A stretch of 10,971 nt of DNA from Caedibacter taeniospiralis (GTDB lineage Bacteria; Pseudomonadota; Gammaproteobacteria; Francisellales; Francisellaceae). This document shows, piece after piece, positions 561-10,971 of this stretch. The notes below the pieces were generated by a model that had not been told where the DNA came from, did not search any database, and saw nothing but the letters and a program-made list of their open reading frames with translations. Both the position numbers and the translations under genes were made by a program. Location: contig NZ_PGGB02000018.1 of the NCBI RefSeq assembly GCF_002803295.2, positions 18,164 to 29,134 on the forward strand, written 5' to 3'. How positions within the stretch are numbered: position 1 is the stretch's first letter; every line of letters begins with the position of its first letter.

Positions 561-1361
561 ATGAAAAATTTAAAGTTGAATAAAGTGATCCTGGCGCTAT
601 TTGCAGTGAGTGCACTTAATGGCATTGCCTTTGCAGAAACAGATGCTGAAAAAATCGTACGCTTAGAGCTTGAATTAAAAGAATACAAAGAGATCTCAAA
701 CAAATATAGAGCTGATTTGGATATATCACATCAAACGTATCAACAATATCAAATAGAAATGGATCAATCATATGCCTTAATAAATGAAAAACTTAAAGAA
801 GTAACTCAGGGATCATACAAAGTTTTTGATGAACAACAAGAGAAATTTGAGAATGAACTTACAGAAGAAGTTACAAAAACCGACAATATTAAAAATAATT
901 TAGATACGATTGGAAATAAAATAAAATCCTTAGAAAAAGAGGAAAAAAAATTAAAAGATGAAAAAAATCAACTGATTAATGATTTCAATCAAAAGATAAA
1001 AAACTTAAATGAAGAATTACTAAAACAAACAGAAGAATCTACACATGAGCTTGATCAAAAAATCAAAGAACTAAATACTGCCAGACAAAACGAAGATGTG
1101 CTAAAAAAACAACTCATAGATATAATTGAGCAACATAAGAAAAATTTAAGTGCGTCTAAAATACGTTTTAAACAGCGAGAAGCAGGTATAGTTGAGCACT
1201 ATAAAACTGTCGGTTCCACATTAGAAGCTCGGCTCAAAGTTATTACTAATACAAAAAGTGTTACAGTAGAACAACTGAAAAAAAATCAGGGTGCCTCGGG
1301 CCTCATGATAGATTTTGTATATCCATACACAAAATCGAATCGGCTATCCTCGGCGGTATAA
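561..1361 (+). CDS. secreted coiled-coil protein; the last ~24 codons and the stop codon lie inside repeat-element copy A
   Basis: ORF track. N-terminal signal peptide MKNLKLNKVILALFAVSALNGIAFA|ETD (K-rich n-region, hydrophobic core, AFA-E cleavage motif). The rest is K/E/L/N-rich and heptad-like. The sequence from codon 244 (GASGLMIDFVYPYTKSNRLSSAV*) is encoded by the GC-rich element starting at 1288. Confidence 0.75.
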   Translation: MKNLKLNKVILALFAVSALNGIAFAETDAEKIVRLELELKEYKEISNKYRADLDISHQTYQQYQIEMDQSYALINEKLKEVTQGSYKVFDEQQEKFENELTEEVTKTDNIKNNLDTIGNKIKSLEKEEKKLKDEKNQLINDFNQKIKNLNEELLKQTEESTHELDQKIKELNTARQNEDVLKKQLIDIIEQHKKNLSASKIRFKQREAGIVEHYKTVGSTLEARLKVITNTKSVTVEQLKKNQGASGLMIDFVYPYTKSNRLSSAV

Positions 1362-1579
1362 ATTTTGCCCGGGCCGCCCGCCTCAACGGTGCTTGTCCTC
1401 ACAAATTCGCTACGCTCATTCCGAACAGACAACACGTTTCCGATTCTACTCTACGCCTTGGGTAAAAGCTTTTTCACAGACTTCGCTCTGGCGCCTTCGG
1501 CACGTCGCTTGCTGATCAACAGCGCAAGGCTACCCGGGTCTACTCGCCCTCGCGTTCCGCTATCCATGGCTCGCAGCGA
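1288..1579 (+). mobile_element. GC-rich non-autonomous repeat element, long form, copy A (292 bp, AGGGTGCCTCGGGCC...GGCTCGCAGCGA)
   Basis: Direct alignment by eye with 7493-7782 (reverse complement) and 6391-6503 (short form). Composition is much more GC-rich than the flanks. Subterminal hairpin GATTTTGTATATCCATACACAAAATC at 1311-1336. No transposase gene inside. Confidence 0.8.
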
Positions 1580-2731: not shown

Positions 2732-3631
2732 CTAGTGCTGTGTCTGTTCCACTTCTTTTTTCAGTTTAAGCACAGTGTCCTGATCAAGACCTGTTCCTTT
2801 AACCACCTGTTCAGCAGATAACCCCATCAGTAAGAAATTACGTGCGGTTGTTTGTATTCCTTTTTGTATTCCTTTTTGCTCCCATTGTTCTGCTACCGTC
2901 ATAACATCACCTCTTAAATCTGGTTTGCTGTATATTAGTTTATCATGAAAATCCTTGGTTTCCATGTCCGAATATTGAGACATATACCGAATCAGTACTT
3001 GTCGTGCAATATGGTCATACGCTTCAATCTGATTAATCGCAATATCAAGCTTGCCATCGATGTTCTTTTCTCTGATGGCTTTTAAAATTAATTCGTATCC
3101 TGCAATAAAACCGTGTTCTAAAATTTCCTCGTCACTGTAACGATTAAGGTCAATGAATTGTGTCGTGAAGGCGTATTTTTTAGCTAACTCTGTATTGGCA
3201 AAATAATCATGGATATTAAGACTGTGACTAAATGGCTTTTGATTGGCATAGTAGATAATCGATACCACTAACGGCAAACCTTTTACTGTCTTGTGCCTTT
3301 TAATATAATCCAACAAGTAGCTGGTTTGATAATGTCTTGTGCGGATTAATATAGTGCCATCATCTCCAGTTTGCGATTCAATATGGACGAATACGGCACC
3401 GTTTTTACCATCCTTGAATTTAAAAAGAAAAGTTAAATCGGACTGTTCTTTTTGCTTTTGATTGTCCTTTTGCTGTTGTCTAACATGCTCAACATTCGCG
3501 GACTCAAGCTTGACAGTTTGCCAGTCAACTAACTCGACAAGTTCTTTAGGCAAGTAGGTCATCAAAAAAGAGACGGCAAAATCTCTATTAGCGATTAAAT
3601 CTTTAAAAACTGAATCATGTACATTTTTCAT
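2732..3631 (-). CDS. Rpn family recombination-promoting nuclease / putative transposase (YhgA-like, PD-(D/E)XK)
   Basis: N-terminal HDSVFKDLIANRDFAVSFLMTYLP matches the family-typical HDxxFKxx...FLxxxLP opening. There is a core VHIESQT motif (hhhEhQS). The C-terminal EQWEQKGIQKGIQTTARNFLLMGLSAEQVVKGTGLDQDTVLKLKK tail is typical of Rpn proteins. Recognition is by memory of the family, not by search. Confidence 0.85.
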   Translation of the reverse strand: MKNVHDSVFKDLIANRDFAVSFLMTYLPKELVELVDWQTVKLESANVEHVRQQQKDNQKQKEQSDLTFLFKFKDGKNGAVFVHIESQTGDDGTILIRTRHYQTSYLLDYIKRHKTVKGLPLVVSIIYYANQKPFSHSLNIHDYFANTELAKKYAFTTQFIDLNRYSDEEILEHGFIAGYELILKAIREKNIDGKLDIAINQIEAYDHIARQVLIRYMSQYSDMETKDFHDKLIYSKPDLRGDVMTVAEQWEQKGIQKGIQTTARNFLLMGLSAEQVVKGTGLDQDTVLKLKKEVEQTQH

Positions 3632-3774: not shown

Positions 3775-3848
3775 GGCTTTTATTTGATTTAATTATTAAA
3801 TAAATATTTATTATAATTGAATTTTATATGGACAAATAATTACAAATT
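3775..3848. promoter_or_regulatory. nearly pure A/T tract next to the tandem array; candidate DNA-unwinding element
   Basis: The sequence gcttttatttgatttaattattaaataaatatttattataattgaattttatatggacaaataattacaaatt has very few G/C and directly abuts the repeat array. No DnaA box was recognised. Confidence 0.3.
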
Positions 3849-4824
3849 GAGCCATGAGAAATGAGCCATGAGAATGAGCCATGAGCCATTAGCGGATTAG
3901 CTATTAAACCCTTAAGCCATAAGGATTTGAGCCATTACCCATTGAGCATTACCCATTGAGCATTACCCATTGAGCCATTACCCATTACCCATTAGCGGAT
4001 TAGCTATTAAACCCTTAAGCCATAAGGATTTGAGCCATTACCCATTGAGCATTACCCATTGAGCCATTACCCATTACCCATTAGCGGATTAGCTATTAAA
4101 CCCTTAAGCCATAAGGATTTGAGCCATTACCCATTGAGCATTACCCATTGAGCATTACCCATTACCCATTAGCGGATTAGCTATTAAACCCTTAAGCCAT
4201 AAGGATTTGAGCCATTACCCATTGAGCATTACCCATTGAGCCATTACCCATTGAGCCATTACCCATTACCCATTAGCGGATTAGCTATTAAACCCTTAAG
4301 CCATAAGGATTTGAGCCATTACCCATTGAGCCATTACCCATTGAGCATTACCCATTGAGCATTACCCATTGAGCCATTACCCATTGAGCATTACCCATTG
4401 AGCCATTACCCATTACCCATTAGCGGATTAGCTATTAAACCCTTAAGCCATAAGGATTTGAGCCATTACCCATTGAGCATTACCCATTGAGCCATTACCC
4501 ATTGAGCATTACCCATTGAGCATTACCCATTGAGCATTACCCATTGAGCCATTACCCATTGAGCCATTACCCATTGAGCATTACCCATTGAGCCATTACC
4601 CATTGAGCATTACCCATTGAGCATTACCCATTGAGCATTACCCATTGAGCCATTACCCATTACCCATTAGCGGATTAGCTATTAAACCCTTAAGCCATAA
4701 GGATTTGAGCCATTACCCATTGAGCATTACCCATTGAGCATTACCCATTGAGCCATTACCCATTACCCATTAGCGGATTAGCTATTAAACCCTTAAGCCA
4801 TAAGGATTTGAGCCATTACCCATT
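3849..4824. repeat. two-tier non-coding tandem array: 8 x 39-bp anchor units plus 40 x 14/15-bp short repeats (candidate iteron or centromere array)
   Basis: The anchor TAGCGGATTAGCTATTAAACCCTTAAGCCATAAGGATTT starts at 3890, 3993, 4082, 4170, 4274, 4421, 4668 and 4771. Runs of GAGC(C)ATTACCCATT follow the anchors in counts of 4, 3, 3, 4, 7, 14, 4 and 1. Every run except the last is closed by ACCCAT. A degenerate GAGCCAT lead occupies 3849-3889. No ORF is present on either strand. Confidence 0.95.
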
Positions 4825-4835
4825 GAACGAATAAA

Positions 4836-6272
4836 TTATTGAATTTCGTAATACGCGTGTCTACCTTTTCCAAACAATTTAATTTTTGTTTTTGACTTAA
4901 GTCTTTGCAGCCAAATTTTAACCATTTCTCTTGATTTGTCAGGAAATAACTCCATAGCCTCTCTAGTCGTTATTTTACCGTGCTTTTGAATATGTTTAAC
5001 AATCGCATTTTCTGCCAAATTTTCATCGTTTTTTAGTGGTTGATTTGGTTGAGTTTTTTCCTCTAAATCAGGTGTATTTTCCACTTTAATTTCATCATCT
5101 TTTTGAGCTATAATTGCTTCTGCAAATTTCTCTATTGATTGAATAGTAGCGATTTTGCCGTTTAGAAGCTCATCAAGAGACTTTTTTGTTATACTCGTAG
5201 GGTTGTATAGGATGATATCTTTTAATTCAAAGGCGAGCTTCCTAGACGCCTTTAAATCGGTGTTTAGATGATACTGTAGCGTTAATCCATTTTTTCTCCA
5301 CCATTTATTGATTATTTCAAAGTTTTCTTCTGACTGCTTCACTTGTGCTTGTTTTTCTTCATTTAATACCTCTGTATCGTTTGTATTTAAAGGCTTAAAG
5401 CCATTTTCAAGAAGTTTGCATAAATAGCCTGCAAGATTATGAATTTTACTTTTTTTGTTCTCGTTGTAAATTGTCTCAAACCCTTGTTCTATCTTGTTTT
5501 TACCATGTTTTTTAATTAATCCCATAGCGTTTTCTGATGAAAATCCCATATCCATCAATTCAGAAAAACAAAAAAAATCATCATCAAAATCAGTCACGTT
5601 TTCTGCGTAATGAGATTCGTCTGTTTGCAAAATTTCTTTGCGCGCGGTGATGATTGATCTCTTGTTTTCTTCTGTATTCTTATGTAGGGAGCTGTCTACG
5701 CCTTGCAGTGTATGGGTTTGAGAGGTGTTGACAATACACGGTTTGTCCATTTTTTTCCCCGTTTTGTCCATTTTTTTCCCCGTTTTGTCCATTTTTTTCC
5801 CCGTTTTGTCCATTTTTTTCCCCGTTTTGTCCATTTTTTTCCCCGTTTTGTCCATTTTTTTCCCCGTTTTGTCCAAAAAGCCCTGGTTTGTACAATTTTG
5901 GGTTATTTTTAGTTCTGTCTTGTTTTTTTTCTGAATGTTTCTTTTAATAGCTTCGTCAACAACCCATATTTTTCTCTGCAAAATAGAATTGTTGTTGAGA
6001 TCTTTTTTCCGATGAAGATAGCCAAAAGAGGCTAGTTTATCGATATGTCTCTTAATTGATTTTTTACACATATTAAAAAATTTCGCAAAAAAATCGTCAC
6101 TGGCGTAACAAACTCCTTCGTCATTACTCGATAGCATTTTGATTTTAGACAATAGACCAACCTGTATCAAAGACACACCTTCTAACAAAAAATATGACTT
6201 CGGAATTTTTACCATATCCTTTTCTTCATCGTTTAAAACTTGAGTTTGTTTCATGTGATAAATTTGATTCAT
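4836..6272 (-). CDS. HTH-domain replication-initiator-like protein (478 aa) with an internal DKTGKKM x6 repeat
   Basis: The ORF-track start at 6320 is a TTG. The ATG at 6272 is preceded by AAGGAG (plus-strand ctcctt 6281-6286) with 8-nt spacing. The N-terminal segment LLSKIKMLSSNDEGVCYASDDFFAKFFNMCKKSIKRHIDKLASFGYL resembles HTH_36 / phage-plasmid replication-organiser winged helices. A second HTH-like segment lies at the C-terminus (ITTREAMELFPDKSREMVKIWLQRL). The gene abuts the tandem array. The function is inferred. Confidence 0.55.
   Translation of the reverse strand: MNQIYHMKQTQVLNDEEKDMVKIPKSYFLLEGVSLIQVGLLSKIKMLSSNDEGVCYASDDFFAKFFNMCKKSIKRHIDKLASFGYLHRKKDLNNNSILQRKIWVVDEAIKRNIQKKNKTELKITQNCTNQGFLDKTGKKMDKTGKKMDKTGKKMDKTGKKMDKTGKKMDKTGKKMDKPCIVNTSQTHTLQGVDSSLHKNTEENKRSIITARKEILQTDESHYAENVTDFDDDFFCFSELMDMGFSSENAMGLIKKHGKNKIEQGFETIYNENKKSKIHNLAGYLCKLLENGFKPLNTNDTEVLNEEKQAQVKQSEENFEIINKWWRKNGLTLQYHLNTDLKASRKLAFELKDIILYNPTSITKKSLDELLNGKIATIQSIEKFAEAIIAQKDDEIKVENTPDLEEKTQPNQPLKNDENLAENAIVKHIQKHGKITTREAMELFPDKSREMVKIWLQRLKSKTKIKLFGKGRHAYYEIQ
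5739..5874 (-). repeat. 21-bp tandem repeat inside the rep-like CDS (6 perfect copies plus 1 degenerate)
   Basis: Plus-strand CCCCGTTTTGTCCATTTTTTT, with cores at 5757, 5778, 5799, 5820, 5841 and 5862. A degenerate CGGTTTGTCC lies at 5739. It encodes DKTGKKM x6. Confidence 0.95.
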
Positions 6273-6359
6273 TTTTGGGACTCCTTTTTCATGGATTGAA
6301 CAGACCACAGAAGTGAACAAAAAAGCTCTTTCACATCCTGCGATATGATAGTTATTTGA

Positions 6360-6390
6360 GATTTTTGATTTTTGATTTTTGATTTTTGAT
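6360..6390. repeat. 7-bp microsatellite GATTTTT x4.4 upstream of the rep-like gene
   Basis: Direct reading gives gattttt gattttt gattttt gattttt gat. It lies 88-118 nt upstream of the ATG at 6272 and directly abuts element copy B. Confidence 0.9.
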
Positions 6391-6503
6391 AGGGTGCCTC
6401 GGGCCTCATGATAGATTTTGTATATCCATACACAAAATCGAATCGGCTATCCTCGGCGGTATAAATTTTGCCCTCGCGTTCCGCTCTCCATGGCTCGCAG
6501 CGA
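6391..6503 (+). mobile_element. short form (113 bp) of the GC-rich repeat element, copy B
   Basis: It has the same left 82 nt and right 31 nt as the long copies. It lacks the central 179 bp, and the junction falls in a shared GCCC. Confidence 0.8.
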
Positions 6504-6516
6504 GCGATATCCCTAT

Positions 6517-6754: not shown

Positions 6755-7306
6755 TTAACTTTCTAGTTCATCTTTGTTTTTTGTATCCTTAAAAAAAATT
6801 TTTGGTCTCCCTCTTGGTCGCTTTGGTTTATCTTCTATCGAAGATTTTTGTACTATTTTTTTTGGACGACCCCTTGGCTTCTTATCTAAATTATCAACGT
6901 AATCCAAGAGATTATCTGGATTAGGAATATGTGCTTCATCAGAAATCAAGGCTTTAAATTCATTTGCAAATTTAAAAAGCACTACGCGTTTCTCTCTCGG
7001 CTTTATTTTTTCCATAGTACGTGGGTTATGAGCATTTTTTCTAAAACTTACTCGTGTCTCAAAGCGCCCAAGCCCTTCAAGTAAAATAATCCGATTATTA
7101 AGCAACTGCTCACGTAAAAGATTCATTAACTCATAAAAGAAATGATTACAATCTTCTCTACTAAATTTCGTCTTGAGTGATAAATGTTTAATCAACTCAT
7201 TTCGACTCATAGATCGATTATCTTTCTTACATGGTCTTCCCCTACCCCTTTTAAGCACTTCTTGTTTGTCATTTTCTTGATTTAGTTTTTTTTCTGCGTT
7301 TATCAT
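6755..7306 (-). CDS. HU/IHF-fold DNA-binding protein with N- and C-terminal AT-hook extensions
   Basis: The core MSRNELIKHLS...LEGLGRFETRVSFRKNAHNPRTMEKIKPREKRVVLFKFANEFKALI follows the HU/IHF pattern (MNKxELI start, GxGxF, R..RNPxT.E.I.I, V.FK). AT-hook-like RGRGRPCKK sits before the core, and PRGRPKK and PRGRPK after it. The internal Met33 is an alternative start. Confidence 0.7.
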   Translation of the reverse strand: MINAEKKLNQENDKQEVLKRGRGRPCKKDNRSMSRNELIKHLSLKTKFSREDCNHFFYELMNLLREQLLNNRIILLEGLGRFETRVSFRKNAHNPRTMEKIKPREKRVVLFKFANEFKALISDEAHIPNPDNLLDYVDNLDKKPRGRPKKIVQKSSIEDKPKRPRGRPKIFFKDTKNKDELES

Positions 7307-7380: not shown

Positions 7381-8021
7381 TCACTTCCAACTCGCGATTT
7401 CAGCAATTCTCTTGTCTGAATTCAAACGATTTTTTATGGCTTCTGCTCTTTTCAACGTGTTTTCTATGTAAACATCATCAGAATTTATACACTCGCTGCG
7501 AGCCATGGAGAGCGGAACGCGAGGGCGAGTAGACCCGGGTAGCCTTGCGCTGTTGATCAGCAAGCGACGTGCCGAAGGCGCCAGAGCGAAGTCTGTGAAA
7601 CAGCTTTTACCCAAGGCGTAGAGTAGAATCGGAGGAGTGTTGTCCGTTCGGAATGAGCGTAGCGAATTTGTGAGGACATGCCGAGGAGGCGGACGGCCCG
7701 GGCAAAATTTATACCGCCGAGGATAGCCGATTCGATTTTGTGTATGGATATACAAAATCTATCATGAGGCCCGAGGCACCCTATTGAGTTTATTCTCAAA
7801 GGACACTCTGTTTGATGCACTTCTTGATAACACTCAACCATTTCCAGGGTCAGCGATCCTCTTGAGTGTTTCTCTTTTAAATATTCAATATCTGACCACC
7901 GTGCTTTACGGATGTCATCTCTGTAAAAATTCATGAAACTTCTTTTTGTTTCAAACACCCCGTAACGTTTATTGATTGCTCTAATAAAAAAATCGTCAAA
8001 AGTTATCACCATCTTATTCAC
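7381..8021 (-). pseudogene. small hypothetical gene interrupted by element copy C; the N-terminal part is fused to element-encoded residues in the 154-aa track ORF
   Basis: Native codons run from 8021 (GTG; or more likely the ATG at 8012, preceded by AGGTGA) to 7783. The element occupies 7782-7493. The downstream tail CINSDDVYIENTLKRAEAIKNRLNSDKRIAEIASWK* (7491-7381) is in frame with the upstream part once the 290 bp are removed. Confidence 0.6.
7493..7782 (-). mobile_element. GC-rich non-autonomous repeat element, long form, copy C (290 bp, inverted relative to A)
   Basis: Its reverse complement aligns end to end with 1288-1579. The first ~89 nt are identical. About a dozen substitutions and a 2-nt indel are clustered in the central segment. 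Confidence 0.8.
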
Positions 8022-8097: not shown

Positions 8098-8445
8098 TTA
8101 TACCGCTCGAAGGTAATATGAATATTCATAACCGTCTTTGGTTAATTTCTTCTCCCACGAGCTCAAATGCTCTGGCATGAACAGCGTTTCTTTATTTTTA
8201 ACACTTTCTACAGGATACGTATACGGCTTCTTCGTGTAAAAAATTCCCGTGTACCGATAGCCAATAGGTAAACTATCTTTTTTCTTTTCAAAACAGACTA
8301 TCGCTTCGTTAAAATACGAAATCACCTTCTTAAATTTTTCTTCACCTGAATAATCAATCAACACTTTTTCTTTCTGCATAATAAGCTCAATAATACGCTT
8401 TATGTTTTGGATGTCTGTTTTTAGCTTTTGACGTTCACTACTCAT
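8098..8445 (-). CDS. hypothetical protein (115 aa), translationally coupled to the upstream gene
   Basis: The ATG at 8445 overlaps the upstream TAG (8440-8438) as ATGAGTAG. AAGGAG lies 10 nt upstream. No recognisable family. Confidence 0.6.
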   Translation of the reverse strand: MSSERQKLKTDIQNIKRIIELIMQKEKVLIDYSGEEKFKKVISYFNEAIVCFEKKKDSLPIGYRYTGIFYTKKPYTYPVESVKNKETLFMPEHLSSWEKKLTKDGYEYSYYLRAV

Positions 8446-10126
8446 TTTTTCTTATCTCCTTTTCTTTTTCACGTTGTTTTTGTTTTAAAGCTTCAATGGA
8501 TTTTTGAGCTTCGATGTGGCTTGTTGCCTGTTGTTCTTGACAGCTATAACCATCAACCAAAGCCCAATGCCGTTTTTTAAATGTTCCGATAAAGACATGC
8601 TTAGGATTATTAATCGCTTTTTCATCCCACCTTTTACTTATATCTTCCCATTGATAAGTCATTTGATGTTCAAAATGCCTTAAGAAAATTTGCAGTTGAA
8701 GTGGGTTCATTTCTATGTTATTTTCTTCAGCGTTAATTTTGATTTTATTGATGTCCGATGAATAGAAGGGTGCTTTCCCCATGCTTTTCAATAGGTCGTT
8801 GATTTTGGTAAGGTCGATGGTTTCGTAAGTAAGGTCAAGATTAACATCGCTTAGATTGACATGACTTAAAGTCAGAGAGTCTGTTTTGTTTAATTCATCT
8901 CTAGTGGTTTCGTTTGTTTTAGTTGCTTCTGAGTTATTTAAAGTAATTTTTCTTAAATCATGATTTTCTTTAACGAGCAGTTCGTATTGCTCTTTTATAA
9001 ATTCCAATTCTTCTGTTAATTTTTCAACGTCATTAGATTGACTATATTTAGAACTGTCTGTTTTTTCATCTTGTCCCATATTACATAACATACTATGCTC
9101 TTCTATTTTATCTATATTATAAATATGGGAGTCGCTTTCATTTTTTTGTGGTGTGTTTTTTTCAAAGTCACCTTGTGTACTTTGTAGGCTTTTTACGTAC
9201 TCAAAAACGTCTGGTCTGATCTGATATTTTACCCATCCATTTCGACCTGTTTTACGCTCGTAAACTGAAATGTAGTTCTTCTTTTTGAGGCGGTAAATTG
9301 CTTTTTTTACAATGTCTTTATTAGATTTTATCTGCTTAATTATATTGTTAGTGTTGATATGACATGTGATTAGTAAACATAAATTTTCTAAGCTAGAAAT
9401 CATAATTCTTATAACTATAAATTGACACCCGTTCAGTTGGATTTTATTTCCTGTTTCTTGAGACATGTCCTCCGTTTTGTCCCCTATTTCTTGAGACATG
9501 TCCTCCGTTTTGTCCCCTGTTTCTTGAGACATGTCCCCCGTTTTGTCCCCTATTTCTTGAGACATGTCCTCCGTTTTGTCCCCTGTTTCTTGAGACATGT
9601 CCTCCGTTTTGTCCCCTGTTTCTTGAGACATGTCCCCCGTTTTGTCCCCTGTTTCTTGAGACATGTCCTCCGTTTTGTCCCCTGTTTCTTGAGACATGTC
9701 CCCTGTTTTGTCCCCTGTTTCTTGAGACATGTCCCCTGTTTTGTCCCCTGTTTCTTGAGACATGTCCCCCGTTTTGTCCCCTGTTTCTTGAGACATGTCC
9801 CCTGTTTTGTCCCCTGTTTCTTGAGACATGTCCCCTGTTTCTTGAGACATGTCCCCCGTTTTGTCCCCTGTTTCTTGAGACATGTCCCCCGTTTTGTCCC
9901 CTATTTCTTGAGACATGTCCTCCGTTTTGTCCCCTGTTTCTTGAGACATGTCCCCCGTTTTGTCCCCTGTTTCTTGAGACATGTCCCCCGTTTTGTCCCC
10001 TGTTTCTTGAGACATGTCCTCCGTTTTACCGTGGTTATTTATAAATGGGTTATCCCATGGTCGATATTTTTTAGGAATATATTCTTTTTTAGACACTAAA
10101 ATAGTGATGTTTTCAATTTTAGGCAT
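8438..10126 (-). CDS. repeat-containing winged-helix protein in the ParB position (562 aa); candidate centromere-binding or Rep-like protein
   Basis: The ATG at 10126 lies 1 nt after the parA stop codon (TAAAATG). Residues 37-230 are 18 tandem DMSQETGDKTG/E units. An HTH-like segment follows (IKQIKSNKDIVKKAIYRLKKKNYISVYERKTGRNGWVKYQI). No ParB/Spo0J motifs were recognised. Confidence 0.7.
   Translation of the reverse strand: MPKIENITILVSKKEYIPKKYRPWDNPFINNHGKTEDMSQETGDKTGDMSQETGDKTGDMSQETGDKTEDMSQEIGDKTGDMSQETGDKTGDMSQETGDMSQETGDKTGDMSQETGDKTGDMSQETGDKTGDMSQETGDKTGDMSQETGDKTEDMSQETGDKTGDMSQETGDKTEDMSQETGDKTEDMSQEIGDKTGDMSQETGDKTEDMSQEIGDKTEDMSQETGNKIQLNGCQFIVIRIMISSLENLCLLITCHINTNNIIKQIKSNKDIVKKAIYRLKKKNYISVYERKTGRNGWVKYQIRPDVFEYVKSLQSTQGDFEKNTPQKNESDSHIYNIDKIEEHSMLCNMGQDEKTDSSKYSQSNDVEKLTEELEFIKEQYELLVKENHDLRKITLNNSEATKTNETTRDELNKTDSLTLSHVNLSDVNLDLTYETIDLTKINDLLKSMGKAPFYSSDINKIKINAEENNIEMNPLQLQIFLRHFEHQMTYQWEDISKRWDEKAINNPKHVFIGTFKKRHWALVDGYSCQEQQATSHIEAQKSIEALKQKQREKEKEIRKNE
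9437..10027 (-). repeat. 33-bp tandem repeat inside the CDS (16 full units, one 21-bp unit, one degenerate terminal unit)
   Basis: GAGACATG recurs at 9460, 9493, 9526 and onward with a 33-nt period, with a single 21-nt step (9823 to 9844). The plus-strand unit is CCCCTGTTTCTTGAGACATGTCC[C/T]CCGTTTTGT. Confidence 0.95.
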
Positions 10127-10127
10127 T

Positions 10128-10971
10128 TTAAATTCCCAATATTTCGGATGTTAATAAACTAAAATCTTCTTTTTCTGGAGTTTTTTTAAAACTATCAAAG
10201 ACTGATATAGACGCTGCTATACAGTTCTCTATAGATTGAAGCGACCTTATATAGCTTCTTAATAAAATTGAGTTGCACTGTTTATTTTTTAATACATATT
10301 TCATTACTTCATGCGATAGATTTGTTCTTGAATCAAATTTATTAAACAATATCTTCAAAACTATATCTTTATCATATTTTTCACATAAATTTAAAATTTC
10401 ATGATGAGTTAATTCAAGACCAGCTAAAGCATAATCAGTTGGAGTGATAGGCATTATTATTTCATCTGATGCAAGTGTAGCAGCAGATACTGCTGACCCT
10501 ATAGATGGTGGACAGTCAATAACAATAATATCATATTTGTTTTTTAATTCTGAAAAAGGTTTATTAAAAACCTTATCTAATGGATGCTTACCAAGCATTA
10601 AAGAGTTATCAAGTAAGGCATTATCTACCCTGCTTGGTATAAAATCTAAACCATCAAATATATTTATAAGTAAATCACTTATCTCTAATTTGTCATTTAT
10701 ATAATCAATAAGAACAGGTTTTTTTCTGGCATCAACCCCCAATGTTCTTGTAAGATTTGCTTGTTGGTCTAATTCAATAAGAGCCACTTTAGCACCTAAG
10801 ATGGCAGCTCTAATCGCAAAATTTAATGATATAACTGTTTTACCAACCCCTCCTTTAACTAATTGGAATGAATATATCTTATTGGGGAATTTATAATTAA
10901 AAAGTTTTTTTGCAGTGTTATGAGAAAAATATACTCTTCTACCAAAATTTTTAGTTTGAAGCCCGCTGTTC
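10128..10971 (-). CDS. parA: ParA/Soj-family partition ATPase, 5' end beyond the window edge
   Basis: The track ORF starts at a GTG (10787), but the frame stays open to 10971 by hand translation: ...NSGLQTKNFGRRVYFSHNTAKKLFNYKFPNKIYSFQLVKGGVGKTVISLNFAIRAAILGAKVALIELD. Deviant Walker A KGGVGKT is encoded at about 10842-10862. Walker B-like IIVIDCPP is present. Confidence 0.9.
   Translation of the reverse strand, partial: NSGLQTKNFGRRVYFSHNTAKKLFNYKFPNKIYSFQLVKGGVGKTVISLNFAIRAAILGAKVALIELDQQANLTRTLGVDARKKPVLIDYINDKLEISDLLINIFDGLDFIPSRVDNALLDNSLMLGKHPLDKVFNKPFSELKNKYDIIVIDCPPSIGSAVSAATLASDEIIMPITPTDYALAGLELTHHEILNLCEKYDKDIVLKILFNKFDSRTNLSHEVMKYVLKNKQCNSILLRSYIRSLQSIENCIAASISVFDSFKKTPEKEDFSLLTSEILGI

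What the first reader, a model, noticed from the sequence alone, without database searches (positions are those of the whole stretch)
9437..10027. 194-residue DMSQETGDKTG/E tandem domain (18 units) near the N-terminus of the ParA-partner protein
About one third of the 562-aa protein is a near-perfect 11-aa repeat starting at residue 37. Variation is limited to G/E and T/I switches, one synonymous ACG/ACA change and one unit shortened by exactly 12 nt. All changes preserve the frame. Such near-identity implies very recent expansion or ongoing homogenisation, and predicts length polymorphism between isolates. The acidic, probably disordered domain separates a short basic N-terminal peptide (MPKIENITILVSKKEYIPKKYRPWDNPF) from the winged-helix segment. 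That layout is compatible with a ParA-stimulating tail on a flexible tether.
Basis: partly seen in the sequence, partly recalled or inferred. Interest (0 to 1): 0.65.

Follow-up and report, generated by a model that had tools for sequence, protein, structure and literature searches.

The report
Protein-binding DNA repeats hidden inside gene
The 18-fold repeat is real, but relatives show that such repeats in this gene family are DNA binding sites for the gene's own winged-helix protein, embedded in the coding sequence, so the peptide repeat is largely a by-product in a previously undescribed plasmid-maintenance family.

Summary
Window 9437-10027 (- strand) holds 17 units of 33 nt and one of 21 nt, in frame, forming residues 37-230 of a 562-aa ORF ("X") that starts one base after the parA stop.

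The window is Caedibacter taeniospiralis R-body plasmid pKAP51. pKAP298 carries an identical array, so the one isolate comparison available shows no length polymorphism.

X belongs to an unannotated family found in Fastidiosibacteraceae, Piscirickettsia, Legionella, Bdellovibrionota and MAGs. The shared plan is a conserved basic N-terminal motif, a low-complexity repeat zone, a winged helix (K.GRGGW) and a helical C-terminal domain. The gene follows parA wherever its upstream side could be read.

In 16 of 17 relatives the repeat zone is built from an 11-bp DNA motif (..GA[GA][AC]CAAAC..). The motif lies on one strand only, falls in all three reading frames, and is spaced at multiples of 11 nt. 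In two relatives it also occurs in non-coding DNA upstream of parA. These are DNA sites.

The Caedibacter unit keeps the core (GGGGACAAAAC) and the 33-bp period. Its 13-nt core recurs seven times inside the plasmid's O-like rep gene.

Best reading: an expanded array of X-binding sites (centromere- or iteron-like), with the acidic peptide serving as a spacer. Whether X is a ParA adaptor, a replication initiator (DnaB helicase follows it in close relatives), or both, remains open.

The parts
9437..10027 (-). Tandem array: a partial unit, then 17 units of 33 nt, one of 21 nt, and a degenerate last unit. The coding-strand unit is GACATGTCTCAAGAAACAGGGGACAAAACGGGG. It holds the family-type core GGGGACAAAAC, a second GGGGACA 12 nt further on, and the 8-bp palindrome GACATGTC. 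It encodes residues 34-230.
   Evidence: AGGGGACA 20 times, spacings 33/21/12; autocorrelation: lag 33 = 0.90, lag 21 = 0.49, lag 12 = 0.47, lag 11 = 0.29; the motifs occur nowhere else in the plasmid except the rep array.
8438..10126 (-). ORF X, 562 aa. Member of an unannotated family of winged-helix proteins encoded directly downstream of parA.
   Evidence: all relatives are 'hypothetical'. No Pfam or NCBIfam family.
10019..10126 (-). N-terminal module, residues 1-36 (MPKIENITILVSKKEYIPKKYRPWDNPF...). It is basic (pI 9.5) and carries two motifs conserved in the family. Inferred to be the ParA-contacting peptide.
   Evidence: alignment of N-termini: MPKLDDVLKE..KKSYRPWD, MPKINSI..KVSYRPWD..KKRRPWFE..TRPWQEN; consensus MPxxxxxLKK...RP. 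The function is inferred and was not tested.
9173..9436 (-). Winged helix-turn-helix domain, residues about 231-318. It carries the family-invariant T, R, K, K, G-R-x-G-W (KTGRNGW in this protein).
   Evidence: invariant columns; pLDDT 82-95; Foldseek: MarR/PadR, TubR, AspA, DnaD-N, E 3e-3 to 2e-2; weak HTH_36, MarR and TFIIE_alpha hits.
8441..8839 (-). Helical C-terminal domain ending in a long helix. Family motifs are GF.K.H..QL, VQESI.HFAW.L and NP...L.G.LKKG..W. No known fold was found.
   Evidence: pLDDT 67.5; no PDB match with E below 6.
10128..10971 (-). parA (Walker-type ATPase, AAA_31/CbiA). Its 5' end is cut by the window edge. Its stop codon lies one base before the X start.
   Evidence: phrog_164 ParA-like, E 1e-51. 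The gene is 307 aa in pKAP298.
8098..8445 (-). 115-aa ORF overlapping the end of X by 8 nt. Orphan; it is not conserved next to X in relatives.
   Evidence: no family. Relatives carry toxin-antitoxin genes or dnaB at this position.
5742..5875 (-). 6.4 perfect copies of a 21-bp unit (GACAAAACGGGGAAAAAAATG, DKTGKKM) inside the O-like rep gene, just after its N-terminal HTH. It shares the 13-nt core GGACAAAACGGGG with the X array, on the same strand and in the same frame.
4836..6320 (-). Rep-like ORF (494 aa from the first TTG; 436 aa as annotated in RefSeq). It has an N-terminal HTH_36 and PHROG 'replication initiation O-like' hits. Its C-terminal 447-493 weakly resembles the X winged helix.

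Best explanation
The 18 x 33-bp array is an expanded and recently homogenised block of DNA binding sites for the winged-helix protein X, which the same gene encodes. As in all relatives, the sites lie inside the coding sequence, between the conserved N-terminal motif and the winged-helix segment. The DMSQETGDKTG peptide is what these sites happen to encode. At the protein level it needs only to be a hydrophilic, unstructured spacer.

Shown here:
- The array, its frame and its core.
- The family.
- The frame-independent 11-bp site motif in relatives, and its reuse in non-coding DNA upstream of parA.
- The fit of the Caedibacter core to that motif.
- The second array with the same core inside the rep gene.

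Inferred:
- X molecules bind side by side along the phased sites (33 bp is about three helical turns) and build a large nucleoprotein complex on the plasmid.
- In pKAP51/pKAP298 this complex is the cargo handle (centromere) of the ParA-X system.
- The N-terminal basic peptide, held away from the DNA by the roughly 190-residue spacer, stimulates ParA.
- The seven matching sites in the rep gene couple this complex to replication or copy control.
- In the wider family the same sites, together with a conserved AT-rich inverted repeat inside the gene, probably also form a replication origin.

The confidence of 0.55 is for this whole reading, including the centromere-like role in pKAP. The narrower claim that the array is a set of DNA-level binding sites, whatever its downstream role, I put at about 0.8 (this reading plus the initiator/copy-control rival).
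For: 1. **Frame-independent motif in relatives.** In 16 of 17 relatives an 11-mer occurs 10-27 times inside the X ORF. Every copy but two is on the coding strand. Copies fall in all three reading frames, against 1-6 expected per locus on both strands together. The top autocorrelation lags are 11, 22, 33 and 44. A period of 11 nt cannot come from selection on a peptide.
2. **Reuse in non-coding DNA.** In the P. salmonis plasmid (L004), 12 copies of AACGGAACACA lie in the intergenic region upstream of parA and 10 lie within the N-terminal coding part of X, all on one strand. Three 11-mers make 33 nt, which reads as NGTQTEHKRNT. In L023, clusters of 2-3 phased sites lie upstream of parA.
3. **Fit of the Caedibacter unit.** The core GGGGACAAAAC fits the family consensus (TAGAGACAAAC, TTGAGCCAAAC, GGAACACAAAC). 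The array sits at the homologous place, on the same strand, with the family's 33-bp period.
4. **Recognition helix tracks site type.** VRKA.QRLE goes with GAGCCAAA, VKK(T/S)IQRL with GAGACAAA, AQVT.RRL with AGAACAAA and SIKTT..RL with ACACAAA. Caedibacter has IVKKAIYRL with GACAAA.
5. **Same core in a second gene.** GGACAAAACGGGG recurs about 7 times at 21-bp spacing inside the rep gene, in a different peptide context (DKTGKKM). By my own estimate, a 13-nt match between two such units is about 2e-5 by chance.
6. **Invariant core.** Nucleotides 19-29 of the unit are identical in all 17 full units. Variation is confined to positions 17, 30 and 32.
7. **Peptide properties are not conserved.** Neither the peptide sequence nor its charge is conserved between relatives.
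8. **Coupling to parA.** X follows parA with small gaps or overlaps in every locus readable upstream, and the N-terminal motif is conserved.
Against: - No binding experiment exists. All function is inferred.
- In Caedibacter the diagnostic three-frame signature is lost. All sites are in one frame, and the sub-structure is 12 + 21 nt, not 11 + 11 + 11. The array could therefore be a relic of ancestral sites that expanded as a neutral coding minisatellite.
- This plasmid has no sites in non-coding DNA, none upstream of parA, and no second cluster after the winged helix.
- The helix-to-site correlation is confounded by shared ancestry.
- Whether the complex serves partition, replication or copy control cannot be settled in silico. 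The shared core might be read by the Rep-like protein rather than by X.
- The acidic 190-residue stretch could have a protein-level role of its own, for example DNA mimicry or auto-inhibition.
Confidence: 0.55

Rival explanations
1. X is chiefly a replication initiator of the lambda O / P22 gp18 type, with its origin inside its own gene. The repeats are iterons. In pKAP51/298 the 18-unit array acts as origin-associated or copy-control iterons that titrate or handcuff (like P1 incA), working together with the matching iterons in the O-like rep gene. It is not a centromere.
For: - In the closest relatives a DnaB-type replicative helicase gene follows X, either 4-12 nt downstream (Cysteiniphilum L009, Facilibium L007, gamma MAG L008) or after one intervening DUF2786/DUF7168 gene (Cysteiniphilum L005). 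Pfam DnaB_C E 1e-98 to 1e-101.
- The family gene contains two iteron clusters followed by the lowest-GC stretch of the ORF. This stretch is a DNA-conserved inverted repeat, CTAGTAGTAGTAGT - AT-rich - ACTACTACTAG, read as SSSS..TTTT in most members and as PIVVV in others. The order is that of ori lambda: iterons, then an AT-rich region, inside gene O (PMC5043065).
- The complete plasmids pBdHAGR5 (10.9 kb) and pBdHAGR3 (15.4 kb) carry parA-X and no recognisable Rep.
- For P. salmonis plasmids pPSLF89-1, -2 and -3 no initiator, oriV or iterons could be found (PMC6963756). A 33.8-kb P. salmonis plasmid has parA-X plus a separate canonical parAB pair.
- In P. salmonis the upstream sites are followed by an AT-rich stretch.
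Against: - pKAP51/298 has no dnaB. Its X lacks the second cluster and the inverted repeat. The plasmid has a separate O-like Rep with its own array.
- X has no sequence or fold match to known initiators. The C-terminal domain has no PDB match, and Pfam gives only one marginal Rep3_N hit in one member.
- Eleven-bp abutting sites are more typical of centromere-binding proteins than of Rep iterons (own knowledge).
- ParA needs a partner, and X is the only conserved neighbour.
Confidence: 0.25
2. One reading: the repeat matters only as protein. It is an acidic, disordered tether that separates a ParA-stimulating N-terminal peptide from the DNA-binding domain. The DNA sequence of the array has no cis function.
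For: - Composition typical of disorder (net charge -41, GRAVY -1.72).
- Conserved N-terminal motif and domain order.
- In Caedibacter all units are in one frame and all indels are multiples of 3.
- No copies lie in non-coding DNA of this plasmid.
Against: - It does not explain the 11-nt, three-frame, single-strand motif in 16 relatives, or its reuse upstream of parA.
- It does not explain the same 13-nt core in the rep gene.
- It does not explain why peptide sequence and charge are not conserved.
- Two of the three variable sites are non-synonymous, so there is no sign of purifying selection on the peptide.
Confidence: 0.12
3. The array is a neutral or contingency minisatellite. Ancestral sites became slippage-prone and expanded without present function, or copy-number changes tune or switch the protein.
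For: - Ninety-six percent unit identity and higher-order patterns (E-I pairs at units 3-4, 14-15 and 16-17) indicate recent unequal exchange.
- Relatives in the same bacterial family also have homogenised super-units.
Against: - The array is identical in two isolates whose flanks differ, which argues against rapid turnover.
- The core is invariant in all full units.
- The location, strand and core are conserved family-wide.
Confidence: 0.08

Closest known systems
Phage lambda O (and P22 gp18) with ori inside the initiator gene
   Same: - Binding-site repeats for a winged-helix protein lie inside that protein's own gene and encode a linker.
- An AT-rich region follows (PMC5043065).
- In X relatives a DnaB-type helicase gene comes next. 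P22 gene 12 sits in the same position (own knowledge).
- The neighbouring pKAP Rep-like gene hits PHROG 'O-like' families and has its array right after its HTH.
   Different: - No sequence homology of X to O.
- Sites are 11-bp direct repeats in two clusters flanking the winged-helix-coding DNA, not four 19-bp inverted repeats.
- X is co-transcribed with parA and has a conserved N-terminal basic motif.
- The Caedibacter copy lacks the AT-rich inverted repeat and the helicase.
Centromeres made of short phased direct repeats: R1 parC/ParR (10 x 11 bp in two clusters), pBtoxis tubC/TubR (12-bp repeats, winged-helix binder), F sopC (12 x 43 bp)
   Same: - Many abutting sites phased with the helical repeat, in two clusters.
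- The binder is the small-operon partner of a segregation NTPase.
- TubR is among the Foldseek matches of the X winged helix.
- Eighteen units of 33 bp, each with an 8-bp palindrome, resemble sopC in scale.
   Different: - Those centromeres are non-coding. Here the sites are inside the binder's gene.
- The motor is a ParA (Walker) ATPase, not ParM or TubZ.
- X is far larger than ParR or TubR and has an extra C-terminal domain.
- The properties of parC, tubC and sopC are quoted from my own knowledge and were not tested here.
RepA_N plasmids (pAD1, pSK41) and repC of repABC replicons: origin inside the rep coding sequence
   Same: - Repeats in the middle of the initiator gene serve as the origin.
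- The module neighbours parA-like genes.
   Different: - No homology (Pfam RepA_N was not hit).
- Different phyla.
- These systems have a separate small adaptor (RepC of pAD1, RepB of repABC). Here no separate adaptor is conserved. Quoted from my own knowledge.
parS inside spo0J/parB of Bacillus subtilis
   Same: A partition site lies within the coding sequence of the protein that binds it.
   Different: It is a single 16-bp palindrome for a ParB/Srx-fold protein. It is not a tandem array and does not shape a repeat peptide. Quoted from my own knowledge.
P1 incA and other auxiliary iteron arrays (copy control by titration or handcuffing)
   Same: A second, larger array shares the core of the origin-proximal iterons and lies next to the par operon.
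   Different: - incA is non-coding.
- It is unknown here which protein reads the core. Quoted from my own knowledge.

Membership tests
ParB/Spo0J (type Ia centromere-binding protein) | ParB/Srx-like N-terminal domain (ParBc) and ParB-type HTH | tested here: not met
   No Pfam, NCBIfam or PHROG ParB hit for X or for 12 relatives. No PDB sequence match.
Type Ib ribbon-helix-helix adaptors (ParG, omega) | Small (under about 120 aa) RHH DNA-binding protein | tested here: not met
   X is 562 aa. Its DNA-binding domain is modelled as a winged helix.
ParA adaptor / centromere-binding protein (functional class) | Encoded directly downstream of parA in one operon | tested here: met
   The X start lies one base after the parA stop. 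The same holds in P. salmonis, Cysteiniphilum, Facilibium and Bdellovibrio plasmids and in metagenome contigs.
ParA adaptor / centromere-binding protein (functional class) | N-terminal basic peptide that stimulates the ParA ATPase | tested here: inconclusive
   A conserved basic N-terminal module exists. Neither interaction nor stimulation could be tested.
ParA adaptor / centromere-binding protein (functional class) | Specific binding to repeated cis sites on the same replicon | not testable with these tools
   The sites are inferred from frame-independent motifs and from the helix-to-site correlation. No binding data exist.
Lambda O-type initiator with intragenic origin | Repeated binding sites inside the initiator's own gene | tested here: met
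Lambda O-type initiator with intragenic origin | AT-rich unwinding region next to the sites | tested here: inconclusive
   Most relatives have a GC 0.13-0.24 inverted-repeat element after cluster 2. The Caedibacter X has only a short AT-rich stretch at residue 334, far from the array.
Lambda O-type initiator with intragenic origin | Helicase or helicase-loader gene downstream | tested here: not met
   dnaB follows X in L005, L007, L008 and L009. In the window a 115-aa orphan follows, and pKAP298 has no dnaB.
Lambda O-type initiator with intragenic origin | Sequence homology to phage O / Rep families | tested here: not met
   X has no Pfam or NCBIfam hit, and its only PHROG hit is a marginal one to a DNA-binding protein family (phrog_1456, E 0.0059). 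The O-like hits belong to the neighbouring 494-aa ORF.
Iteron-plasmid Rep (WH1-WH2, Rep_3/RepA) | Two winged-helix domains and a Rep_3 profile match | tested here: not met
   One winged helix is modelled. The only profile hit is a marginal Rep3_N match (E 0.062) in one of 12 members.

The most novel reading that the evidence does not exclude
parA-X is a self-contained two-gene maintenance cassette in which one winged-helix protein does two jobs. It binds helically phased 11-bp sites embedded in its own coding sequence. There it serves both as the replication initiator (opening the intragenic AT-rich inverted repeat and recruiting a DnaB helicase) and as the ParA adaptor. Origin and centromere would then be the same nucleoprotein complex. 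If so, this is the missing replicon of the P. salmonis plasmids and of small Bdellovibrio plasmids. The Caedibacter array would be a copy specialised towards partition and copy control.
Probability: 0.25. Interest if true: 0.85.

Novelty: new variant of a known kind. Interest (0 to 1): 0.68.

Why it matters
- **A new family.** It defines a widespread, wholly unannotated family of plasmid proteins. Every database member is labelled 'hypothetical' or 'predicted transcriptional regulator'. The cis sites of these proteins are written into their own genes.
- **A clean example of double coding.** An 11-bp DNA motif read in three frames produces an 11-residue peptide repeat. A conserved inverted repeat is read as SSSS..TTTT in some members and as PIVVV in others.
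- **A candidate for an open problem.** It offers concrete candidates for the replication origin and/or centromere of Piscirickettsia salmonis plasmids. A dedicated study found no initiator, oriV or iterons for three of the four LF-89 plasmids (PMC6963756). The same holds for the maintenance region of the Caedibacter R-body (killer) plasmids.
- **A caution for annotators.** Near-perfect peptide repeats in DNA-binding proteins of mobile elements may be protein-binding DNA arrays rather than protein domains.

Tried and rejected
- **Close homologues.** A word-indexed search with residues 231-562 found only the protein itself. The exhaustive HMMER search was needed to find the family.
- **Profile libraries.** Pfam, NCBIfam and PDB sequence searches gave nothing beyond weak generic winged-helix hints, and PHROGs gave only a marginal hit (E 0.0059) to a DNA-binding protein family.
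- **Foldseek, whole model.** Only generic winged-helix folds, which do not decide function.
- **Foldseek, C-terminal domain.** No match.
- **hhalign, family against the 494-aa Rep-like protein.** Only a non-significant match to its C-terminal winged helix (probability 1.4%). I therefore do not claim paralogy. BLASTP between the two proteins aligns only the DKTG repeats.
- **Other isolates or copies of the unit.** None in metagenome or IMG/VR contigs, so copy-number variation could be tested only between pKAP51 and pKAP298.
- **Sites upstream of parA in pKAP298.** None found.
- **Expression data.** None for this gene in the Dual-Seq paper or its supplement.
- **Rfam.** No hit in the window.
- **IMG/VR scan for the family.** One locus only, and none in the phage collection. 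The family is therefore plasmid-borne rather than phage-borne.
- **Similarity of the 15-bp satellite unit to part of the 33-bp unit.** Eleven of 15 positions match. I judged this not significant (about 0.1 by my estimate) and dropped it.
- **GC-skew origin mapping.** Considered and not run. The two candidate regions in pKAP are only about 4 kb apart, and the P. salmonis plasmids are mosaics of IS elements.
Full report
**1. Provenance**

The window matches Caedibacter taeniospiralis R-body plasmid pKAP298 (NC_005915.1) at 99.9% identity. The 562-aa protein sits on a 41,651-bp contig. That is the size reported for pKAP51 of strain 51 (PMC7297999).

Against pKAP298 the window has an extra 292-bp repeat element at 1287-1578. 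The remaining 9.4 kb shows eight point differences (two of them Ns in the record) and two single-base indels.

One of those differences is a missing C in pKAP298 at window position 10054, inside the N-terminal codons of the ORF. Another is an N inside unit 1. This probably explains why the gene table for that record lists no CDS here. The window's frame reads KKYRPWD, a motif conserved in relatives, so the window version is the correct one.

**2. The observation**

- There are 18 units covering residues 37-230. Seventeen are 33 nt. Unit 6 is 21 nt and lacks exactly GACAAAACGGGG. The last unit is degenerate, and a 9-nt partial unit precedes unit 1.
- Units 1-17 vary at only three nucleotide positions: T/I in three units, G/E in six, and a synonymous ACG/ACA change in three.
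- The encoded stretch has net charge -41, pI 4.05, and almost no order-promoting residues.
- The array is identical in pKAP51 and pKAP298. The predicted length polymorphism is therefore not seen in the one comparison available. No further copies of the unit exist in the metagenome or IMG/VR collections.

**3. The protein family**

The protein, called X here, has no close homologue and no Pfam, NCBIfam or PDB sequence match. Its only PHROG hit is a marginal one to a DNA-binding protein family (E 0.0059). An exhaustive HMMER search and follow-up searches uncovered a family. Members occur in:

- Piscirickettsia salmonis plasmids (75 records);
- Cysteiniphilum and Facilibium, which belong to the same bacterial family as Caedibacter;
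- Legionella and Fluoribacter plasmids;
- a Cardinium plasmid;
- small Bdellovibrio plasmids;
- many metagenome contigs.

Every member is labelled 'hypothetical' or 'predicted transcriptional regulator'.

The shared plan is as follows:

- an N-terminal module, MP.(I/L)(D/N/E)..(L/I)LKK, then a basic patch, then RP(W/Y)(D/Q);
- a low-complexity repeat zone;
- a winged helix with invariant K.GRGGW;
- usually more repeats after the winged helix;
- an S-run/T-run stretch;
- a helical C-terminal domain.

AlphaFold2 models the Caedibacter winged helix with pLDDT 82-95. Foldseek returns MarR/PadR folds, including the segregation proteins TubR and AspA and the DnaD N-domain, at weak E-values. The C-terminal domain has no PDB fold match.

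A ParA-type ATPase gene lies immediately upstream in every locus whose upstream side could be read.

**4. The repeats are DNA sites**

*P. salmonis.* In locus L004 the 11-mer AACGGAACACA occurs 22 times with at most one mismatch, all on one strand. Twelve copies lie in the intergenic region upstream of parA, in blocks of one to three. Ten lie inside the N-terminal part of X. Three abutting 11-mers make 33 nt and read as NGTQTEHKRNT.

*Across relatives.* In 16 of 17 relatives an 11-mer with the common core ..GA[GA][AC]CAAAC.. occurs 10-27 times inside the ORF. Every copy but two is on the coding strand, and copies fall in all three reading frames. They form two clusters that flank the winged-helix-coding 300 nt. 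Chance expectation is 1-6 per locus on both strands together.

*Periodicity.* Autocorrelation of the pre-winged-helix coding DNA peaks at lags 11, 22, 33 and 44. Lag 11 scores 0.36-0.57, against 0.26-0.38 for lag 12.

*A second non-coding example.* Locus L023 carries about seven clusters of 2-3 phased sites in non-coding DNA upstream of parA.

A period of 11 nt, use of one strand only, and reuse in non-coding DNA cannot come from selection on a peptide. The recurring peptide pattern x-x-x-Q-x-x-x-K is simply CAAA read in two frames.

*Recognition helix.* The predicted recognition helix tracks the site type: VRKA.QRLE with GAGCCAAA, VKK(T/S)IQRL with GAGACAAA, AQVT.RRL with AGAACAAA, and SIKTT..RL with ACACAAA. 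This is suggestive, but it is confounded by shared ancestry.

**5. The Caedibacter array in this light**

The unit contains GGGGACAAAAC, which fits the GAGACAAAC type. Its helix is IVKKAIYRL, which matches the helix of that site group.

The array lies at the homologous position and on the same strand, and it keeps the family's 33-bp period. Its internal structure, however, is 12 + 21 nt. GGGGACA recurs at those spacings and lag 11 is at background, so all sites fall in one frame. The core is invariant in all 17 full units.

Each unit also holds the palindrome GACATGTC. X in Caedibacter has no second cluster. The plasmid has no sites upstream of parA.

The 13-nt core GGACAAAACGGGG recurs in 6.4 perfect 21-bp units inside the neighbouring Rep-like gene, just after that protein's N-terminal HTH. 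It is on the same strand and in the same frame, but it encodes DKTGKKM there. GGGGACA occurs 27 times in the 49-kb plasmid, always within these two arrays.

The Rep-like protein matches PHROG 'replication initiation O-like' families. In lambda the origin iterons lie inside gene O and are followed by an AT-rich region (PMC5043065).

**6. Centromere, origin or both**

*For an adaptor (centromere) role:*
- strict coupling to parA;
- no other conserved partner for ParA;
- the conserved basic N-terminus;
- abutting, helically phased short sites in two clusters, which are typical of centromere binders such as ParR/parC and TubR/tubC (own knowledge);
- sites in the parA promoter region in two relatives.

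*For an initiator role:*
- In Cysteiniphilum (two loci), Facilibium and a gammaproteobacterial MAG, a DnaB-type helicase gene follows X. In three of these loci the gap is 4-12 nt, and in L005 one DUF2786/DUF7168 gene lies between.
- Most family members carry a DNA-conserved inverted repeat right after the second site cluster: CTAGTAGTAGTAGT, then 12-23 AT-rich nt, then ACTACTACTAG. It is the lowest-GC part of the ORF. It is translated as SSSS..TTTT in most members and as PIVVV in others.
- Two complete small Bdellovibrio plasmids carry parA-X and no recognisable Rep.
- For P. salmonis plasmids pPSLF89-1, -2 and -3 no initiator, oriV or iterons had been found (PMC6963756).
- One 33.8-kb P. salmonis plasmid has parA-X in addition to a canonical parAB pair.

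*For pKAP51/298 specifically.* There is no dnaB, no inverted repeat, and a separate O-like Rep. I therefore favour a centromere-like role for the expanded array, with cross-talk to the rep-gene sites. I keep the origin/copy-control reading as the main rival.

**7. Verdict**

The repeat is best understood as an array of protein-binding DNA sites embedded in coding DNA. This is a new variant of a known theme (lambda O, RepA_N, repC, parS in spo0J), found here in an undescribed ParA-coupled winged-helix family.

All functional statements are inferences from sequence. No binding, stability or expression data exist.

Noticed in passing
window 3848-4826: A 980-bp non-coding satellite of about 61 copies of a 14-15-bp unit (TTGAGCCATTACCCA), with higher-order periods of 29 and 89 bp. 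It starts 10 bp after the stop of the Rep-like gene and is identical in pKAP298. Its role is unknown (origin-associated, centromere or spacer). Its unit is 11/15 identical to part of the 33-bp unit, but that is not significant.
   Followed up: partly
window 5742-5875 (within ORF 4836-6320, - strand): 6.4 perfect 21-bp repeats inside the O-like rep gene, just after its N-terminal HTH. They encode DKTGKKM. This looks like a lambda-style origin inside the initiator gene, and it shares a 13-nt core with the array under study.
   Followed up: partly
window 1287-1578; also 7490-7782 (reverse) and a deleted copy at 6389-6504: A roughly 292-bp repeat element with no Rfam match. pKAP298 has four full copies and one internally deleted copy. 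The window (pKAP51) has an extra copy at 1287-1578 that pKAP298 lacks at that site, so the element is or recently was mobile (MITE-like). The short ORFs beginning MYIHTQNRIGYP... are artefacts of it.
   Followed up: partly
NC_005915.1 (L001 15620, 16899, 16934; window 8739, 10018, 10054): The pKAP298 record has two Ns and a one-base deletion inside the X gene. No CDS is listed for X in that record. This is likely sequencing error rather than a pseudogene, because the window's frame restores the conserved YRPWD motif.
   Followed up: yes
L014 2205-2260, L015 6335-6395, L021, L023, L024, L026, L027, L029 and others (inside X homologues): A DNA-level conserved inverted repeat: CTAGTAGTAGTAGT, then 12-23 AT-rich nt, then ACTACTACTAG. 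It sits inside the coding sequence just after the second site cluster. It is translated as SSSS..TTTT in most members and as P-I-V-V-V in others. It is absent from the Caedibacter and P. salmonis copies. It could be an unwinding element, a hairpin or an RNA structure.
   Followed up: partly
L005 7849-9210, L009 7009-8364, L007 3808-5163, L008 1011-2366: Plasmid- or contig-borne DnaB-type replicative helicase genes lie downstream of X in Fastidiosibacteraceae relatives and in a gammaproteobacterial MAG. In L005 a DUF2786/DUF7168 gene lies between X and dnaB.
   Followed up: partly
window 6755-7306 (- strand): An HU-family DNA-binding protein (Bac_DNA_binding, E 1e-15) extended at both ends by AT-hook-like GRGRP / PRGRPKK motifs. 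It is encoded between the rep gene and the parA-X operon and may be an architectural factor for these arrays.
   Followed up: no
window 2732-3631 (- strand); L026 12956-15478: An Rpn/YhgA-like (Transposase_31) gene lies next to the maintenance region. The same family sits near parA-X on an unrelated 18-kb metagenomic contig. An 83%-identical copy is on a Cysteiniphilum plasmid.
   Followed up: no
L004 3518-4457 and L003 1033-1914: In some P. salmonis plasmids the module is damaged. parA is split into two ORFs in NZ_CP061199.1. X is truncated by an IS6 element in NZ_CP038958.1, although the site arrays are retained.
   Followed up: no
window 4836-6320, residues 114-451: The Rep-like protein scores E 3.5e-190 against phrog_151, which is annotated 'transposase'. 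However, tblastn against 50,697 phage genomes finds only weak N-terminal HTH matches. The PHROG hit may be driven by repeat or compositional content, or by a mislabelled family.
   Followed up: no
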